From a virus (Duplodnaviria; Caudoviricetes), in IMG/VR virus record IMGVR_UViG_3300020577_009873, positions 4,638-68,637 of that record: a DNA stretch of 64,000 nucleotides, one strand, 5' to 3'. How positions within the stretch are numbered: the stretch's first letter is position 1; each line of letters opens with the position of its first letter. A model generated the notes under the pieces. That model was not told the origin of the DNA, made no database searches, and saw nothing but the letters and a program-made list of their open reading frames with translations. Positions 2,973 to 61,438 of the stretch are shown piece after piece. A program made the position numbers and the translations under genes.

Positions 2973-3242
2973 TTAATCTCTTAAAAGATGACCTAGTCTA
3001 ATATCTCTTACTATATCATTAAAGTCAACTGATCCTTCCATAACATCATCCACATTTGATATTATAACTCTTACCCAAGGATTATCCATATTTATGTCAA
3101 CAAATTCTGTATAGCTAGATTCTCTCGTATATAAACCAATAACCTCATTTAATATACACACAGGATCATCATGCCCAGTATAATTAAAAATCGCTATTTT
3201 TCCACTTCCAGATTTGACTTCGGTTATTTTAACATCTTTCAT
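2973..3242 (-). CDS. hypothetical protein
   Basis: ORF ending RDIRLGHLL. Confidence 0.7.
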   Translation of the reverse strand: MKDVKITEVKSGSGKIAIFNYTGHDDPVCILNEVIGLYTRESSYTEFVDINMDNPWVRVIISNVDDVMEGSVDFNDIVRDIRLGHLLRD

Positions 3243-3859
3243 TTTAAATTAAAGGTTTTTTTATAAACATTTTTAATAGCATTAATTCCTGCTGGTGTTA
3301 TTTCTCTTGTTCCGATTCCAGCAAAATCCTGAACAACTATTTTTGGACAATTTGATTCTATAAAGCTCATAGATGAATAACTCCATCTAAACCATTTTTC
3401 TGTTTTTTGATCAAAAACCCAAACATCTTTTAAGTTATCAATTCCCATTTGAACAGCATATCCTGTTCCACCGTCAACTGATTGATATTTTGAATTACAA
3501 CGATATCCCTTCGCAGTTTTTTCGCCAGGGTTTACAATTGTACCAATAGCAATAATTTGTTTTGAGTATTTAACTTGGCACCAATTTCGAGCAAGTAAGT
3601 TAATATACTTATCAATACCATATCGATTAAGCCAATGATTGGCCCTAAAAACTTGCGTAATTCCTTCTTTAAAGTCCTCTTCTGATATTTCAACTTTATT
3701 TGGAGAAGTATGCATTTTTGTTTTATATGAATATGCTCTGGTCTTAACGTTAATTTTCTCACCCATTTTTTCCCAATAGGTATCAGCTCCCTCTGCACCA
3801 CCAGAATGGCATGTAATATTATTAAGATCTATTTCTAATTCACCAAAGATATCTATCAT
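3239..3859 (-). CDS. SLOG/DprA-like nucleotide-binding protein
   Basis: HSGGAEGAD, LARN and GGTGYAV motifs. Confidence 0.65.
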   Translation of the reverse strand: MIDIFGELEIDLNNITCHSGGAEGADTYWEKMGEKINVKTRAYSYKTKMHTSPNKVEISEEDFKEGITQVFRANHWLNRYGIDKYINLLARNWCQVKYSKQIIAIGTIVNPGEKTAKGYRCNSKYQSVDGGTGYAVQMGIDNLKDVWVFDQKTEKWFRWSYSSMSFIESNCPKIVVQDFAGIGTREITPAGINAIKNVYKKTFNLK

Positions 3860-53388: not shown

Positions 53389-53538
53389 TTAAATAATTAA
53401 TTTTTAATATCAAATTATATAGTAAAATATATCATGTACATTTTATATAAAGCGGAAAAATTATTTAAATAAAAAAACTTTTCGTATATTTGAAAATATA
53501 TAAAAAGAGAGATTAAAAATTTAATATATAAAAAAAGA

Positions 53539-53570
53539 TTTGGTGGGTAGAAAAGTTCGCCGTATCTTTG
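53539..53570 (+). promoter_or_regulatory. Bacteroidota sigma-A promoter for the His/Phe/Trp module
   Basis: TTTG-N20-TATCTTTG. Confidence 0.8.
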
Positions 53571-53597
53571 TGAAACAAATAATAAAAAGAAAAAATC

Positions 53598-53693
53598 ATG
53601 TCATACGTTAGTAAACATAAACATTTTAGCAAATTCCATTTTTGGTTTAGTACCAAGAGTTCGGGAGCTAATATTGTTTTGCCTAATGTGTAA
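53598..53693 (+). CDS. His/Phe/Trp leader peptide MSYVSKHKHFSKFHFWFSTKSSGANIVLPNV
   Basis: 3 His, 4 Phe and 1 Trp within codons 7-17; GAGTTCGGG pairs with terminator arm CCTGAACTC. Confidence 0.88.
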   Translation: MSYVSKHKHFSKFHFWFSTKSSGANIVLPNV

Positions 53694-53716: not shown

Positions 53717-53747
53717 AAACCTGAACTCGAAAAGTTCAGGTTTTTTT
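53717..53747 (+). terminator. His/Phe/Trp attenuator terminator
   Basis: AAACCTGAACT-CGAAA-AGTTCAGGTTT followed by TTTT. Confidence 0.9.
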
Positions 53748-54395: not shown

Positions 54396-54483
54396 GGTGG
54401 TATTAGTGTCAGCGGTGAGTCTGAAAAGACGAGCACGATACTCTGTGAAAGTATTAGCACCGGTTCAAATCCGGTATATCACC
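54396..54483 (+). tRNA. tRNA-His(GTG) with D-loop hairpin insertion
   Basis: G-1/C73; ATACT-CTGTGAA-AGTAT; T-loop TTCAAAT. Confidence 0.85.
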
Positions 54484-54488
54484 CAAAA

Positions 54489-54811: not shown

Positions 54812-54818
54812 CAAACAT

Positions 54819-54900
54819 ACATCCGCTCATAAGCGTGACCAGCCGGTTCCAACCCGGTAATGCGTAAGCGTGGTTAAGAGTTCGAATCTCTTCGGGTGTT
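54819..54900 (+). tRNA. atypical tRNA(CCA) with reduced D-arm and long variable arm
   Basis: ACATCCG/CGGGTGT; GCCGG-TTCCAAC-CCGGT; AAGAG-TTCGAAT-CTCTT. Confidence 0.7.
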
Positions 54901-54908
54901 CAAAACAT

Positions 54909-55786: not shown

Positions 55787-55843
55787 ATGACAACAATTAA
55801 AAACATAAAAAAATCTAAAAAACGAATAAAAATGATTCGATAG
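55787..55843 (+). CDS. Lys leader peptide MTTIKNIKKSKKRIKMIR
   Basis: six AAA codons; TGATTCG pairs with terminator arm CGGATCA; four tRNA-Lys downstream. Confidence 0.8.
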   Translation: MTTIKNIKKSKKRIKMIR

Positions 55844-55862: not shown

Positions 55863-55898
55863 AACCCGGATCAGATTAATTTTCTATCCGGGTTTTTT
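55863..55898 (+). terminator. Lys attenuator terminator
   Basis: AACCCGGAT...ATCCGGGTT followed by TTTT. Confidence 0.85.
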
Positions 55899-55920
55899 AT
55901 ATATAAAATAAAAAAAAATT

Positions 55921-56343
55921 ATGCAAAAAACATATGAATGCAAAGAAATTAATGGATATGAAAATTATTTAATATCTACAAACGGTGATGTTTATAATAA
56001 AAAAACAGGCCGTAAAATGAAAACTAGAATAACCAAAACTGGATATGTAGATGTTTCTATTTGTAATGAAAAAGGAGCTAAAACATTTTTAATACATCGA
56101 CTTGTGGCGATGACACATATTGATAATGTATTTAATAAGCCCTTTGTCAATCATAAGGATCATGATAGAAAAAATAATAATGTTAGTAATCTAGAGTGGG
56201 TGACAGCAGAAGAAAACTCAAATCATATGTTTAGAAAAAAGAAAAAAGGGACTATTTCAAAAACTAAAATTATTGATATTTATGAAAGTAAAAAATGGAA
56301 AAATGTTGAGGATTTTTATAAAGAAATAATTGATAAATATTAA
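55921..56343 (+). mobile_element. NUMOD4-HNH homing endonuclease
   Basis: YLISTNGDV; IHRLVA...VNHKDHDRKNNNVSNLEW. Confidence 0.9.
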
Positions 56344-56656: not shown

Positions 56657-56674
56657 CAAAAAAAAATTAAAATT

Positions 56675-56911
56675 ATGGAAACGCTAACAACAATAAGAGA
56701 AAGATTAGAAACACATTATGAAGGTGTTTATAGAAAGATATGGGTTCAAGGCAGTGCTCGTCATGGTCAAAATGATATTTTATTAACTCTATTTCCTTCA
56801 AATAGTGACGGATATAAGATTGTATCTATGCGAAAGTTAAGAAATATTTCATTTGAAGAAGTGCTCACAGTACTACAAAGAGAATTAAGCATCACAAATA
56901 TATTAGAGTAA
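56675..56911 (+). CDS. hypothetical protein (start METLTT)
   Basis: ATG after an A-rich leader downstream of the tRNAs. Confidence 0.6.
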   Translation: METLTTIRERLETHYEGVYRKIWVQGSARHGQNDILLTLFPSNSDGYKIVSMRKLRNISFEEVLTVLQRELSITNILE

Positions 56912-56926
56912 TTTAATATATAATGG

Positions 56927-58380: not shown

Positions 58381-58848
58381 ATGAAATATCTAAATAAATT
58401 TTCAAAGTTCTTTAAAAGAAAAAATGAAAAAAAGGTTCCATTTAAACAAGTTTTAATAAACCTTCAAAAATTTATTGACTCAGTTTGTCCTGATGAAGTA
58501 TCAGTTCGATATCACCAAAAAATGGTGATAAATGATATTAAGGTTCAAAATTTTATACCTCCTGCTGATCAGATACCAAAGTCTTTAGGATTAGGCAGAA
58601 TTAAAATAACCTTACTACAAGATAATGAAAATTATATTTTAATTACTTTACCTTATAATGATCAAATGAAATTTGATATGTTATATTGGAGGGATTTTAT
58701 ATGTCAAGATGGATCAATGCAAAGAGTACCAACTAATACACCACCGGGATATTGGATTCCACAAATAAGTCATGGAGAAGAAGGATCTTTATTTGATAAA
58801 GTTAGGGAATATCTAATAGATAATAATCTGGTTGGTCCAGTTGATTAG
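58381..58848 (+). CDS. hypothetical protein with N-terminal MKYLNKF tag
   Basis: AATATATA upstream; paralog of 59658..59867. Confidence 0.75.
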   Translation: MKYLNKFSKFFKRKNEKKVPFKQVLINLQKFIDSVCPDEVSVRYHQKMVINDIKVQNFIPPADQIPKSLGLGRIKITLLQDNENYILITLPYNDQMKFDMLYWRDFICQDGSMQRVPTNTPPGYWIPQISHGEEGSLFDKVREYLIDNNLVGPVD

Positions 58849-58881: not shown

Positions 58882-59658
58882 ATGATTGATAATTTTAAGC
58901 AATTTGAATTAAATCAAAATTCATATTTCAATGCTGCTAAAAAGGCTGATGAATATGGTCTAAGTAAAAAATCAAAGAGATTATCCGAGTGGGGTAATAT
59001 TGCGGGAACCGTTAATAATAATGTGTCTCCTCATACCTTAGGATATTTTAATCTTGATATGAGTGTTTATAGAAGAAGATTTCAAAAACCTAACATGTAT
59101 AGACCAGATCGAATGGATAATTACACAGGTATTGAATGTTGGCCAACAAATTTAGAAATATCACAATTAAAAAATTTAAGCAATAGAACTACTGATATTG
59201 ACATAGTATATGATGGCCCGATTAAAGCTTATTTACGTGATATTTATTTAGACTGCAGAACTCATGCAAGTAATATTAGATTAGTGCCCTATTTTCATTT
59301 TTTTGATAAAAATAATGATCCAATTTATGCAGACATTCCTGATCCTATTGTTATAGAAATTCCAATTTCTTGGACTATAAACAACGAACATGATAACCGA
59401 AATCCTGCAGAATTATATTTTAAAGTGAAAGGAGAATACAACATTCGTAGTCACGATGAAAGTCGGAAAAATATTCTATTTAATGATAGAAGATCTGCTA
59501 CAAAACTTAAAATGGTAATTAGTAAAATGGATGATTATTATAAAGATAAATATGATCAGGTCAGTGATTTCTTTAAAGAATATTCATATGCTGAGGAGTT
59601 TATCAAATTTTTAGGGATTCTAAAATCAATATCCGTTCATAAACTATATAAAGACTAA
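58882..59658 (+). CDS. hypothetical protein
   Basis: ORF starting MIDNFKQFE. Confidence 0.75.
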   Translation: MIDNFKQFELNQNSYFNAAKKADEYGLSKKSKRLSEWGNIAGTVNNNVSPHTLGYFNLDMSVYRRRFQKPNMYRPDRMDNYTGIECWPTNLEISQLKNLSNRTTDIDIVYDGPIKAYLRDIYLDCRTHASNIRLVPYFHFFDKNNDPIYADIPDPIVIEIPISWTINNEHDNRNPAELYFKVKGEYNIRSHDESRKNILFNDRRSATKLKMVISKMDDYYKDKYDQVSDFFKEYSYAEEFIKFLGILKSISVHKLYKD

Positions 59659-59867
59659 TGAAATATTTAAATATAAAATTATTAGAGGATGATGATACAT
59701 ATATTTTAATTTCACTAGGATATAATCATGATATGAAATTTGATATGATGACGTGGACAGAGAAAGCATCATGGATGAGACAAGTGAGTCATGGGTTAGA
59801 AGGATCTTTATTTGATAAAGTAGCAAATTATCTAACAGATAATGAATTAGTTGACCCTATTATTTAA
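59658..59867 (+). CDS. internally deleted paralog of 58381..58848
   Basis: shared MKYLN, YILI, MKFDM, SHG.EGSLFDKV..YL.DN.LV. Confidence 0.7.
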   Translation: MKYLNIKLLEDDDTYILISLGYNHDMKFDMMTWTEKASWMRQVSHGLEGSLFDKVANYLTDNELVDPII

Positions 59868-59872
59868 ATAAT

Positions 59873-59903
59873 TTTGGTGGGAATAAAAAAAATCGTATCT
59901 TTG
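59873..59903 (+). promoter_or_regulatory. Bacteroidota sigma-A promoter for the Ser/Arg module
   Basis: TTTG-N19-TATCTTTG; closely similar to the promoter at 53539. Confidence 0.8.
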
Positions 59904-59939
59904 TGAAAACAAAGGAATAAAAATATAATATATACAATT

Positions 59940-60005
59940 ATGAAAATGGTTAATACAAATACAAGTTCGTCACGTAGTTCTAACAGCTCGAAAATTCGAA
60001 GTTGA
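59940..60005 (+). CDS. Ser/Arg leader peptide MKMVNTNTSSSRSSNSSKIRS
   Basis: 8 Ser codons of five kinds plus CGT and CGA; AAATTCGAAGTT pairs with the terminator arm. Confidence 0.9.
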   Translation: MKMVNTNTSSSRSSNSSKIRS

Positions 60006-60032
60006 TTGTATTTCTATTGCTATACAATATTG

Positions 60033-60059
60033 AACCTCGAATTTAATTCGAGGTTTTTT
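60033..60059 (+). terminator. Ser/Arg attenuator terminator
   Basis: AACCTCGAAT-TTA-ATTCGAGGTT followed by TTTT. Confidence 0.9.
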
Positions 60060-60066
60060 GTTTTAT

Positions 60067-60139
60067 GGTTCCATCGTCCAACTGGATAGGACATGACCCT
60101 GCGAAGGTTAAGATATGAGTTCGAATCTCATTGGGACTT
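60067..60139 (+). tRNA. tRNA-Arg(GCG)
   Basis: TGACC-CTGCGAA-GGTTA; T-loop TTCGAAT. Confidence 0.88.
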
Positions 60140-60145
60140 CAAATT

Positions 60146-60234
60146 GGTGAGTTAAGCAGCTACATTGGAGTGGCGACCAGCTTTGAAACCTGGGTTTCGT
60201 TAAATCGGATGGGGGTCGGGTCCTCAGCTCACCG
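60146..60234 (+). tRNA. atypical tRNA-Ser(TGA)
   Basis: GGTGAGT/GCTCACC; CCAG-C-TTTGAAA-C-CTGG; long variable arm; T-loop GTCGGGT. Confidence 0.7.
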
Positions 60235-60238
60235 CAAT

Positions 60239-60326
60239 GGAGGGATGGCAGAGTTGGTCTATTGCACCTGACTTGAAATCAGGAGGTCGGGCAACCGATC
60301 CGTGGGTTCGAATCCTACTCCCTCCT
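60239..60326 (+). tRNA. tRNA-Ser(TGA)
   Basis: CCTGA-CTTGAAA-TCAGG; long variable arm. Confidence 0.92.
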
Positions 60327-60331
60327 CAAAT

Positions 60332-60404
60332 GTTCTTGTAGCTCAACGGTTAGAGTTTTCCGCTTCGAACGGAAAGGATGTAGGTTCGAATCCTACCAAG
60401 AATT
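60332..60404 (+). tRNA. tRNA-Arg(TCG)
   Basis: TTCCG-CTTCGAA-CGGAA. Confidence 0.88.
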
Positions 60405-60453
60405 CAAAAAAATTGAACTCACATTTTAATATATAGTGAAAATATGAGTTCAA

Positions 60454-61026
60454 ATGAAATACACAGTATATAAAATAACAAATTTAATAAACGGTAAAAT
60501 TTATATCGGAGTTCATAAAACAGAAAATTTAGACGATGGATATATGGGATCTGGTAAAAATATAAAAAGAGCTATTGACAAATATGGAATTCAAAATTTT
60601 AAAAAAGAATATATTAAAATATTTGACAATCAAGAAGATATGTTTAAAATGGAGTCTGAGTTGGTAAATGAGTTATTTTTATCTAGTCGTGAGAATTATA
60701 ATATAATGAAAGGAGGCCATGGAGGATTTGAACATATAAATAAAAATTGTTGGGATAAAGAAAGTAGAAAAAATCATTTACAAAAAATATACAATTTGGT
60801 TTCAGCTGAAAAAAGAAAGGATATCGGAGCATATATGGGTAAAAATTTTGGAGGTAGTAATAGATTAAGAGAGGATGTAATAAATTATAGATTAAAAATA
60901 CTCGAAACAGTTGACATGTCTAAATATGGTTGGGTAGAAAAAGCTAGTAAATTACTAAATATAACCCATACACAAGTTAGGAGATTTGTAAATAAATATT
61001 ATACGGGGGAATATTATAGAAGATAA
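60454..61026 (+). mobile_element. GIY-YIG (Seg-like) homing endonuclease inside the tRNA array
   Basis: TVYKITNLINGKIYIGVH...YMGSG...YN. Confidence 0.88.
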
Positions 61027-61115
61027 GGAGAGTAAAGTAGCCAGGGTGCTACCACCGCCTGCTAAGCGAGTGGATCGGGTAACTGATTACGTTTCGAGCA
61101 CGTTGCTCTCCTCCA
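61027..61115 (+). tRNA. tRNA-Ser(GCT) with 8/4 fold
   Basis: 8-bp acceptor GGAGAGTA/TGCTCTCC, 4-bp T-stem, 5-bp D-stem, encoded CCA. Confidence 0.8.
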
Positions 61116-61116
61116 T

Positions 61117-61205
61117 GGTAAAATACCCAAGAGGATGTAAGGGGCTCGCTTGGAAAGCGAGTAGGTCGGGAAACTGGCGCATGAGTTCGAATCTCATTTT
61201 TACCG
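61117..61205 (+). tRNA. tRNA-Ser(GGA)
   Basis: CTCGC-TTGGAAA-GCGAG; long variable arm. Confidence 0.9.
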
Positions 61206-61221
61206 CGAAAAAATTAAAATT

Positions 61222-61419
61222 ATGATTTTAGAAGAAAATATAAATGGATTAGTTTTTGTTGAACAAAGGACTTTTTATATCTATAAATCCGAAGAAGATA
61301 GAAAGAATGGAAAGTATTCATTTGTAACTTCTGATGAAGGTTTATTTTTAACTCACAAGGAAAACTTAAGAAAAAAATTGTCAGTTATAAGGGATGAAAA
61401 GATAGATAAAGTTTTATGA
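61222..61419 (+). CDS. hypothetical protein
   Basis: ORF ending RDEKIDKVL. Confidence 0.7.
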   Translation: MILEENINGLVFVEQRTFYIYKSEEDRKNGKYSFVTSDEGLFLTHKENLRKKLSVIRDEKIDKVL

Positions 61420-61438
61420 TCTTTTTAATATATATTCT

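What the first reader, a model, noticed from the sequence alone, without database searches (positions are those of the whole stretch)
59873..61205. Ser/Arg leader samples the codons read by the downstream tRNAs
Leader codons AGT TCG TCA CGT AGT TCT AAC AGC TCG ... CGA AGT cover five of six Ser codons and two CGN Arg codons. The array supplies Ser(TGA) x2, Ser(GCT), Ser(GGA), Arg(GCG) and Arg(TCG). There are no AGR Arg codons in the leader and no AGR tRNA in the array. AAATTCGAAGTT (59992-60003) pairs 11/12 with AACCTCGAATTT (60033-60044). The first tRNA starts 8 nt after the terminator, so the regulated product is tRNA. This suggests sensing at isoacceptor level, not just amino-acid level.
Basis: partly seen in the sequence, partly recalled or inferred. 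Interest (0 to 1): 0.9.

Follow-up and report, generated by a model that had tools for sequence, protein, structure and literature searches.

The report
Serine/arginine attenuator before phage tRNAs
A 21-codon reading frame rich in serine and arginine codons, followed by a terminator, sits just before a giant phage's arginine and serine tRNA genes and probably turns them on when ribosomes run short of those tRNAs, a control not described for tRNA genes.

Summary
At 59940-60005 a 21-codon ORF has 8 Ser and 2 CGN Arg codons. It is followed by a strong intrinsic terminator (60032-60056 plus a T run), and tRNA-Arg(GCG) starts at 60067. The 11/12 competing pairing exists. Two programs call four of the six claimed tRNAs; one more folds as a cloverleaf and one is doubtful.

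The design repeats. All 3 tRNA arrays in the window (His/Phe/Trp/Tyr, Lys, Arg/Ser) and two synthetase genes (ileS, valS-like) are preceded by a short ORF rich in the cognate codons plus a terminator.

Homologous Ser/Arg leaders were found in 19 further distinct sequences from viral and metagenome contigs. In 18 of them tRNA-Arg follows the T run within 5-108 nt. Ser codons switch between the TCN and AGY families, and two helix positions co-vary.

Best reading (0.75): a ribosome-mediated leader-peptide attenuator whose cargo is a phage tRNA array. Sensing at isoacceptor level is plausible but unproven. No expression data could be obtained.

Eight literature searches found no report of such control of tRNA genes. 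Earlier scan notes on this same window list the sibling leaders; none had been followed up.

The parts
59873..59903 (+). Promoter-like site of the Bacteroidota type: a -33 box at 59873-59876, a 19-nt spacer and a -7 box at 59896-59903. It is part of a block shared with the aromatic leader upstream region (53527-53596).
   Evidence: the pattern matches here and at 53539-53570; 8 matches in the window against 3.12 expected, and 2 of 100 shuffles reach 8; repeats D7 and D20; the 14-mer occurs exactly twice. The consensus itself is recalled from the literature, not from a call.
59901..59929 (+). Alternative sigma-70-like promoter match (10 of 12 positions, 17-nt spacer).
   Evidence: Such sites are not enriched in the region (44 found, 53.1 expected), so this is weak.
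59940..60005 (+). Leader ORF of 21 codons plus a TGA stop, with 8 Ser and 2 Arg (CGT, CGA).
   Evidence: It is the top 1 of 577 small ORFs for Ser+Arg density.
59964..59990 (+). Regulatory codon run, codons 9-17: eight of the nine are Ser or Arg (CGT).
   Evidence: In the ribosome-mask model the antiterminator forms only with the A site on codons 12-15.
59984..60004 (+). Small hairpin (region 1:2) that sequesters the antiterminator strand when no ribosome is near. An alternative partner for region 2 lies at 59962-59969.
   Evidence: RNAfold, (8 pairs with one bulge). Inferred role.
59992..60003 (+). Antiterminator strand (region 2). It ends at the first base of the stop codon.
   Evidence: Pairs 11/12 with 60033-60044. 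The local fold of 59985-60046 gives this helix at -12.9 kcal/mol.
60032..60064 (+). Intrinsic terminator (regions 3 and 4): stem 60032-60056 with a 3-nt loop, then a T-rich tail to 60064.
   Evidence: 11 pairs, 4 G-C. Hairpin energy -11 to -13 kcal/mol depending on the exact stretch folded.
60067..60140 (+). tRNA-Arg(GCG)
   Evidence: ARAGORN; Rfam 57.2 bits.
60146..60236 (+). tRNA-like element with a TGA-containing loop. It is doubtful as a tRNA.
   Evidence: Not called. It aligns partly with Ser(TGA) genes. The RNAfold structure is not a cloverleaf.
60239..60327 (+). tRNA-Ser(TGA)
   Evidence: Rfam 58.7 bits.
60332..60405 (+). tRNA-Arg(TCG)
   Evidence: Rfam 68.4 bits.
60454..61026 (+). GIY-YIG homing-endonuclease-like gene inserted inside the array.
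   Evidence: Pfam PF01541, 23.1 bits against a cut-off of 22.6. BLASTN hits to annotated phage homing endonucleases.
61027..61114 (+). Probable tRNA-Ser(GCT) with a bulged anticodon stem.
   Evidence: Not called by ARAGORN or Rfam. Class-II cloverleaf in RNAfold. Aligns with called Ser(GCT) genes of L011 and L005.
61117..61206 (+). tRNA-Ser(GGA)
   Evidence: Rfam 53.3 bits.

Best explanation
This is a ribosome-mediated (leader-peptide) transcription attenuator of a huge phage, and it gates read-through into an Arg/Ser tRNA array.

How it would work:
1. Transcription starts about 30 nt before the ORF.
2. A ribosome translates the 21-codon leader.
3. If Ser- and Arg(CGN)-decoding aminoacyl-tRNAs are plentiful, the ribosome runs to the stop codon. 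There it covers the strand 59992-60003, the terminator 60032-60056 folds, and RNA polymerase stops just before tRNA-Arg.
4. If the ribosome stalls in the Ser/Arg run, that strand is free. It pairs with the terminator's 5' arm, and polymerase reads on into the tRNA genes.

The array is therefore made on demand, with negative feedback through the supply of the very tRNAs it encodes.

Shown here: the anatomy, its statistical rarity, its repetition for four other cognate cargoes in the window, its conservation, and limited covariation.
Inferred: translation of the ORF, the transcription start, the stall-dependent switch, and the physiological signal.
For: Anatomy:
- ORF, competing pairing, terminator and tRNA lie within 130 nt, with no room for a promoter after the terminator.

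Rarity:
- 1 of 577 small ORFs reaches its Ser+Arg density.
- About 0.002 chance partners are expected per 100 nt.

Repetition in the window:
- 3 of 3 ARAGORN-called tRNA arrays are preceded by a short ORF rich in the cognate codons plus a terminator. These are the His/Phe/Trp/Tyr leader 53598-53693, the Lys leader 55787-55843 and this one.
- In a census of 31 terminator-like hairpins, the five that I judged by eye to follow an ORF with an amino-acid run stand before cognate cargo.
- That cargo is ileS (TIGR00392, 666 bits, above cut-off), a gene whose best match is valS, a best-match hisS plus His/Phe/Trp tRNAs plus a best-match trpS, Lys tRNAs, and Arg/Ser tRNAs.

Conservation:
- Five further Ser/Arg leaders came first (L011, L012, L021, L025, L026). 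For L011 and L012, which were fetched with that protein, the HisRS-like protein is only 62-63% identical to the window's.
- Pattern scans then gave 19 distinct homologues. In 18 of them tRNA-Arg(ACG) is called 5-108 nt after the T run.
- Ser positions switch between TCN and AGY, and the number of Arg codons in the run varies (1 or 2, all CGY).
- Array content co-varies with the leader. L009 has Trp and His tRNAs but no Phe tRNA, and its leader has His and Trp codons but no Phe codon.

Structure:
- RNAalifold on the 19 sequences itself predicts the 1:2 hairpin and the long-range antiterminator. Two pairs are kept through changes on both sides.
- The named helix is 88.5% paired, against 18-63% when slid, and its covariation score is 0.076 against 0.055 in shuffles, with 0 of 500 shuffles reaching it.
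- For the aromatic leaders, the partner of the terminator arm lies at codons 18-24 in 5 of 5 homologues and beats shuffles (2-33 of 500 reach it).
- The ribosome-mask model gives the expected logic.
Against: - There is no expression evidence. The only RNA-library runs that hold the locus are kept as contigs and cannot show ends or levels.
- For the Ser/Arg leaders taken singly, the antiterminator duplex is only weakly better than shuffles: 23 to 141 of 500 reach it, and 69 of 2000 for the window's 12-mer arm.
- With five sequences, covariation was not significant (90 of 500 shuffles).
- The 19-sequence set was fished with a pattern that fixes 25 bases. The sequences are related, and the tool warns that this can beat shuffles without any structure.
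- In the relatives the model predicts read-through when no ribosome is present, unlike the trp paradigm.
- The promoter assignment rests on a recalled consensus and a modest enrichment.
- Two of the six claimed tRNAs are not called.
- Downstream plus-strand protein genes may share the transcript.
Confidence: 0.75

Rival explanations
1. It is the same attenuator machinery, but it reports general amino-acid starvation or a global slowing of translation rather than the supply of particular tRNA isoacceptors. The link to tRNA cargo would be only a way of boosting translation capacity late in infection.
For: Every leader-peptide attenuator responds to uncharged tRNA whatever the cause. Units in the same window control synthetases (ileS, the valS-like gene), where sensing of charging level is the classical logic. 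The aromatic leaders also contain Ser and Lys codons.
Against: Making more tRNA does not relieve amino-acid starvation. Each of the five leaders is specific for its own cargo. The Arg codons in the Ser run are CGY in all sequences seen, although CGN makes up only 132 of 655 Arg codons in the contig's long ORFs. In the 19 fished sequences, however, one of those CGC codons was fixed by the search pattern.
Confidence: 0.3
2. The ORF and terminator form an independent small gene (a peptide or a small RNA of about 150 nt). The tRNAs are made by constant leaky read-through, and nothing is sensed.
For: A promoter-like site, a short ORF and a strong terminator form a complete unit. No expression data are available.
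Against: This does not explain why the ORF's composition matches the cargo in 5 of 5 units. It does not explain why Ser codons change family while Ser identity is kept. It does not explain why a strand at the ORF's end complements the terminator arm and co-varies with it. There is no other promoter for the array within the 7 nt after the T run.
Confidence: 0.1
3. It is a chance ORF next to an ordinary terminator that ends the upstream genes (58882-59867).
For: AT-rich DNA gives many short ORFs (577 in the contig). Terminators are common here (31 hairpins).
Against: It ranks 1 of 577 for Ser+Arg density. Homologues exist in 19 further distinct sequences in front of Arg/Ser tRNAs. A paralogous promoter-like block is shared with the aromatic leader.
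Confidence: 0.03
4. It is a translation-independent RNA switch that binds tRNA directly (T-box-like).
For: It sits before translation-supply genes, as T-boxes do.
Against: No T-box or any other known cis-regulatory family is matched, even at E=10. The leader is too short for one. The codons form an in-frame run between a start and a stop, and they vary synonymously.
Confidence: 0.03

Closest known systems
Leader-peptide attenuators of amino-acid operons (trp, his, pheA, thr, ilv, leu of Enterobacteria)
   Same: A short ORF with a run of regulatory codons, mutually exclusive antiterminator and terminator helices, and a stop codon placed so that a finishing ribosome masks the antiterminator. Multivalent leaders occur there too (thr, ilv). 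This comparison rests on established knowledge, recalled.
   Different: The cargo here is tRNA genes, not biosynthetic enzymes. The owner is a phage. The promoter type is probably Bacteroidota-like and there is no Shine-Dalgarno sequence. In the relatives the no-ribosome state is predicted to read through.
E. coli pheST attenuator (pheM leader), and the His leader peptide before hisS paralogues/hisZ in bacilli
   Same: Leader-peptide attenuation controls a translation-supply gene (an aminoacyl-tRNA synthetase) with cognate codons. The window's ileS, valS-like and hisS-like units are of this kind. For the bacillus hisS paralogue/hisZ case I saw passages of PMC2965389. pheST is recalled.
   Different: Those control synthetases only. 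No tRNA gene is the regulated product.
T-box riboswitches
   Same: The functional logic is the same: sense a shortage of one charged tRNA and read through a terminator into translation-supply genes.
   Different: A T-box binds tRNA directly without a ribosome and has a conserved fold. None is matched here.
Phage tRNA clusters such as that of T4 (with homing endonuclease genes among the tRNAs)
   Same: Tandem tRNA genes in a large phage, interrupted by GIY-YIG/HNH endonuclease genes. The T4 comparison is recalled.
   Different: To my knowledge, and in the searches, no leader-peptide attenuator is described for them.

Membership tests
Leader-peptide (ribosome-mediated) transcription attenuator | A short ORF with start and stop upstream of the cargo that contains a run of regulatory codons | tested here: met
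   21 codons, with 8 of 9 consecutive codons being Ser or Arg. 1 of 577 small ORFs reaches this.
Leader-peptide (ribosome-mediated) transcription attenuator | An intrinsic terminator between the leader ORF and the regulated genes | tested here: met
   60032-60056 plus a T run. The tRNA starts 7 nt after the first T run.
Leader-peptide (ribosome-mediated) transcription attenuator | An antiterminator helix mutually exclusive with the terminator, supported by comparison | tested here: met
   11/12 pairing. RNAalifold predicts the helix in 19 homologues, with 2 compensatory pairs. 88.5% of cells are paired, against at most 62.8% when slid. Support is moderate and the single-sequence tests are weak.
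Leader-peptide (ribosome-mediated) transcription attenuator | Geometry: a stalled ribosome frees the antiterminator and a finishing ribosome masks it | tested here: inconclusive
   A thermodynamic model with an assumed footprint (-15 to +12 around the A-site codon) gives the expected pattern. It is a model only.
Leader-peptide (ribosome-mediated) transcription attenuator | Regulatory codons cognate to the function of the cargo | tested here: met
   Arg and Ser tRNAs lie downstream here and in 18 of 19 homologues. 5 of 5 leader units in the window are cognate.
Leader-peptide (ribosome-mediated) transcription attenuator | Read-through rises when the cognate charged tRNA is scarce, and this depends on translation of the leader | not testable with these tools
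   The RNA runs are held only as contigs. The host is uncultured and unknown.
T-box riboswitch | Conserved T-box fold and sequence (Rfam model) | tested here: not met
   No match at gathering score or at E up to 10.
tRNA (for the two extra genes claimed at about 60146-60236 and about 61027-61114) | Recognised by ARAGORN or the Rfam tRNA model; cloverleaf fold | tested here: inconclusive
   Neither is called. 61027-61114 folds as a class-II cloverleaf and 60146-60236 does not. Both align in part with Ser tRNAs of relatives.

The most novel reading that the evidence does not exclude
Huge phages carry a codon-resolved tRNA-shortage alarm. Each tRNA array (Arg/Ser, Lys, His/Phe/Trp/Tyr) and each phage synthetase gene is wired to a leader whose codons are read by exactly those molecules. 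Loss of particular host isoacceptors during infection, for example through anticodon-nuclease defences or infection-induced tRNA decay, would stall ribosomes on the leader and switch on replacement tRNAs. This would be a counter-defence sensor built from a classical attenuator, and the first case of tRNA genes regulated by their own decoding activity.
Probability: 0.3. Interest if true: 0.9.

Novelty: new variant of a known kind. Interest (0 to 1): 0.8.

Why it matters
Phage tRNA genes are usually discussed as constitutive codon-usage patches or as decoys against tRNA-cleaving defences. A leader-peptide attenuator in front of them would mean that the phage measures decoding capacity codon by codon and supplies tRNAs on demand. 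That makes the long-standing question of why phages carry particular tRNAs directly testable: change the leader codons or deplete one isoacceptor, then measure read-through.

It would also extend leader-peptide attenuation in three ways: to RNA-gene cargo, to viruses, and probably to hosts that initiate translation without a Shine-Dalgarno sequence.

The unit is compact (about 190 nt) and modular, so it could serve as a sensor of specific tRNA availability.

Tried and rejected
- Relatives through the upstream 258-aa protein: none found.
- The upstream region of the HisRS-like gene in 16 loci: only the near-identical L001 keeps the aromatic leader at that place. In the others the leader sits directly before the tRNAs or elsewhere.
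- A loose codon pattern for Ser runs in five huge-phage records matched as often as its reversed control. The four places I fetched were inside long ORFs with no tRNA nearby, so I rejected them.
- Of the 18 metagenome stretches, 4 (L064, L066, L070, L078) were chance matches in contigs that are G+C-rich (58-73% computed for L064, L070 and L078; L066 judged from its sequence, no figure computed) and have no tRNA. I dropped them. I dropped L081 as the same record as L067. L072 and L082 duplicate L067.
- RNA evidence: four wastewater metatranscriptome runs hold 35-37% of the sampled words, but only as assembled contigs of a related strain. They cannot show starts, ends, strand or level, and DNA may be present in them, so they give no verdict on transcription.
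- Covariation with five sequences was not significant. The terminator count suffers from alignment gaps.
- I recalled a possible precedent, a Phe-rich leader before an E. coli tRNA-Phe gene. The 105 nt between yqgA and pheV in K-12 show no Phe-rich ORF of at least 20 codons (shorter ORFs were not listed) and, read by eye, no terminator-like hairpin, so I dropped the recollection. The 1985 paper was not held, and a search for its title found nothing.
- Literature searches found no report of leader-peptide attenuation of tRNA genes or in huge phages. I saw listings and abstracts only, plus passages of PMC3082878, PMC7049720 and PMC2965389. Supplements were closed and were not consulted.
- Sigma-70-type promoter scanning is not informative here: 44 sites found against 53.1 expected.
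Full report
**What the window is.** The window is 64 kb of a 68.6-kb virus record with 29.7% G+C. It carries three tRNA arrays, a short HisRS-like gene, a TrpRS-like gene, an ileS gene, a valS-like gene and several homing-endonuclease genes. Relatives of its HisRS-like protein lie on viral contigs of 56 to 676 kb. It is therefore a fragment of a huge phage. Genes have no Shine-Dalgarno sequence by eye. Two leader regions carry a match to the promoter consensus that I recall for Bacteroidota: 8 matches in the window against 3.12 expected, with 2 of 100 shuffles reaching 8. The host assignment is inference only.

**Anatomy of the finding.**
- A promoter-like site lies at 59873-59903.
- The ORF 59940-60005 has 21 codons. 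Codons 9-17 hold seven Ser codons and one CGT, and CGA and AGT come just before the TGA stop.
- The strand 59992-60003 ends at the first base of the stop codon.
- An 11-pair terminator lies at 60032-60056 and is followed by a T-rich tail.
- tRNA-Arg(GCG) starts at 60067.
- After it come a tRNA-like element, Ser(TGA), Arg(TCG), a GIY-YIG gene, a probable Ser(GCT) and Ser(GGA).

- The codon list, the 11/12 pairing, the absence of AGR codons and AGR tRNAs, and the short distance to the first tRNA are correct.
- ARAGORN and Rfam call four of the six tRNAs, even at relaxed thresholds.
- The element at 61027-61114 folds as a class-II cloverleaf with a bulged anticodon stem and aligns with called Ser(GCT) genes of relatives.
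- The element at 60146-60236 does not fold as a cloverleaf.

**More than chance.**
- Among 577 ATG-started ORFs of 12-45 codons in the six frames of the contig, only this one reaches 8 Ser+Arg in 9 residues.
- In 70 long ORFs, Ser is 7.5% of codons. CGN codons are 132 of 655 Arg codons, and TCG is 68 of 1404 Ser codons. The leader's use of CGT, CGA and two TCG codons is therefore atypical.
- A partner with at most 1 mismatch to the terminator's 5' arm occurs three times in 137 kb.
- The duplex-energy test against shuffles is weaker: 69 of 2000 shuffles reach the observed value.

**The same design five times in one window.** Before I consulted earlier notes, I saw two sibling units.
- The ORF 53598-53693 is rich in His, Phe and Trp codons and also has one Tyr codon. 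A terminator at 53717-53743 follows, then the HisRS-like gene, tRNAs called Tyr, Phe, His and Trp, and the TrpRS-like gene.
- The ORF 55787-55843 has seven Lys codons. A terminator follows, then an HNH gene and four tRNA-Lys genes.
- These rank 4 of 577 and 1 of 577 for their residue sets.

The scan's earlier notes on this same window added an Ile leader before ileS and a Val leader before the valS-like gene. I read both and checked the cargo. ileS scores 666 bits, above its cut-off. For the other gene the best matches are valS models, below their cut-offs.

A census of 31 terminator-like hairpins on both strands found these five, and no others, preceded by a short ORF with an amino-acid run. 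The judgement of what counts as a run was mine, by eye. All five are cognate to their cargo. The two tRNA-array leaders with promoter-like sites share a paralogous upstream block.

**Conservation.**
- Ser/Arg leaders with the same layout stand before tRNA-Arg(ACG) and Ser tRNAs in L011, L012, L021, L025 and L026. These contigs are up to 476 kb. For L011 and L012, which were fetched with that protein, the HisRS-like protein is 62-63% identical to the window's.
- A gapped pattern scan of the metagenome and viral collections examined 25 places.
  - Four were chance hits in G+C-rich DNA.
  - 21 were leaders, of which 19 were distinct.
  - In 18 of the 19, tRNA-Arg(ACG) is called 5-108 nt after the T run. 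The contig of the nineteenth ends 89 nt after it.
- Among the homologues, Ser positions change within and between the TCN and AGY families. Lys codons come and go. Two lineages have a second Arg codon in the run, also CGT. This is the pattern expected when composition is selected rather than a peptide or RNA sequence.
- The scan pattern fixed nine bases of the run. The invariance of that CGC codon in the 19 sequences is therefore by construction.
- Array content follows leader content elsewhere. L009 has Trp and His tRNAs but no Phe tRNA, and its leader has four His codons and one Trp codon but no Phe codon. L005 has a mixed Lys/Arg/Trp/Ser/His/Phe array behind a leader with Lys, His, Ser, Phe and Trp codons.
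- In L017, a close relative of the window, the Lys leader and terminator lie within 10 nt of the first tRNA-Lys with no HNH gene between them.

**RNA structure.**
- In the window, the local fold of 59985-60046 gives the antiterminator helix at -12.9 kcal/mol. The terminator hairpin is about -11 to -13 kcal/mol.
- A small hairpin at 59984-60004 can sequester the antiterminator strand.
- In the relatives, RNA truncated before the 3' arm folds with the terminator's 5' arm paired to the last third of the ORF in 5 of 5 sequences.
- On 19 sequences, RNAalifold by itself predicts a hairpin over the Arg-Ser codons and this long-range helix. Two pairs are kept through changes on both sides.
- Counting the named helix gives 88.5% paired cells, against 18-63% when slid. 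The covariation score is 0.076 against 0.055, with 0 of 500 shuffles reaching it.
- These sequences are related and the structure was derived from one of them, so the support is moderate.
- Single-sequence duplex tests are weak for the Ser/Arg leaders (23-141 of 500 shuffles reach the observed value). They are strong for four of the five aromatic leaders (2-4 of 500; 33 of 500 for the fifth, L009), where the arm sequences differ between phages but the partner always lies at codons 18-24.

**How it most likely works.** I masked a ribosome footprint and folded the RNA made before the 3' arm exists. The footprint was assumed to run from -15 to +12 around the first base of the A-site codon.
- In the window, the antiterminator forms only when the A site is on codons 12-15 (CGT, AGT, TCT, AAC). 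It does not form when the ribosome is further on or at the stop.
- In the relatives, it forms unless the ribosome has passed about codon 16.
- The reading is that smooth translation leads to termination before the tRNAs, and stalling on Ser or Arg(CGY) codons leads to read-through.
- The anatomy, conservation and covariation are shown. Translation, the transcription start and the switch itself are inferred.

**The isoacceptor claim.** Any leader peptide senses at codon level. The leader samples codons of all three Ser tRNA classes carried by the array, and it uses the rare TCG and CGY codons. That fits tuning to the cargo. Three points weaken the claim:
- CGA lies inside the antiterminator strand in all homologues, so it may be structural.
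- L021 has one AGA codon.
- The phage itself prefers AGA (421 of 655 Arg codons).

I rate this part as open.

**Comparison and novelty.** The machine works like the classical leader-peptide attenuators, and the units before synthetase genes resemble pheST (recalled) and the His leader before the bacillus hisS paralogues and hisZ (passages of PMC2965389). No T-box or other known RNA family matches. Eight literature searches found no report of leader-peptide control of tRNA genes, or of attenuators in huge or jumbo phages. A recalled E. coli precedent was not borne out at pheV. I file it as a new variant of a known kind: a known mechanism with new cargo and a new owner.

**Limits.**
- There are no expression data.
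- The host is unknown.
- The promoter is inferred.
- No terminator was found between the array and the plus-strand genes up to about 62993, so protein genes may share the regulated transcript.

Noticed in passing
window 55863-56343; L017 2520-2660: In the window an HNH/NUMOD4 endonuclease gene lies between the Lys leader's terminator and the four tRNA-Lys genes. In the close relative L017, and in contigs of the RNA-library runs, the terminator is followed directly by tRNA-Lys. The endonuclease gene therefore looks like a recent insertion into the junction between attenuator and cargo.
   Followed up: partly
window 60067-60140, against L011, L012, L021 and others: The first Arg tRNA has anticodon GCG in the window's lineage but ACG in all 18 relatives where it is called. 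GCG would read CGY without needing adenosine deamination. A second Arg(TCG) is present only in some lineages.
   Followed up: no
window, whole: The phage's long ORFs use AGA for 421 of 655 Arg codons, yet the only Arg tRNAs in the window read CGN. The tRNA set therefore does not mirror the phage's own codon preference.
   Followed up: partly
window 54396-54484, 54813-54908, 60146-60236, 61027-61114: Several tRNA-like elements between called tRNAs escape ARAGORN and Rfam at default settings. One is called His(GTG) only at a relaxed threshold. They have extra or irregular arms.
   Followed up: partly
window about 59915-59935, 53515-53533, 56912-56925, 61424-61437; L012, L013, L025, L026 upstream of their leaders: An A/T motif of about ten bases recurs 10-25 nt before many start codons, including those of the leader ORFs in several phages. 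It may be a phage-specific promoter or an initiation signal.
   Followed up: no
window 58381-58848 and 59658-59867: The 69-aa ORF just upstream of the leader is a paralogue of the C-terminal part of the 155-aa ORF 1 kb upstream (74-76% DNA identity, repeats D2 and D4).
   Followed up: no
L012 about 3275-3345; L013 about 3082-3163; L026 (reverse) about 240-335: In these phages the Lys-rich mini-ORFs before the Lys arrays are followed by a G+C-rich hairpin without a T run. The Lys units may therefore work by a different, non-terminator mechanism there.
   Followed up: no
L067, L069, L082: In this lineage the first called tRNA-Arg lies 108 nt after the T run, not about 11 nt. The intervening 100 nt were not examined.
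   Followed up: no
window 61206-61225 and 56657-56676: The Lys and Arg/Ser arrays are both followed by nearly the same A-rich spacer leading into a small ORF. No terminator was detected, which suggests that the arrays are embedded in longer transcripts.
   Followed up: no
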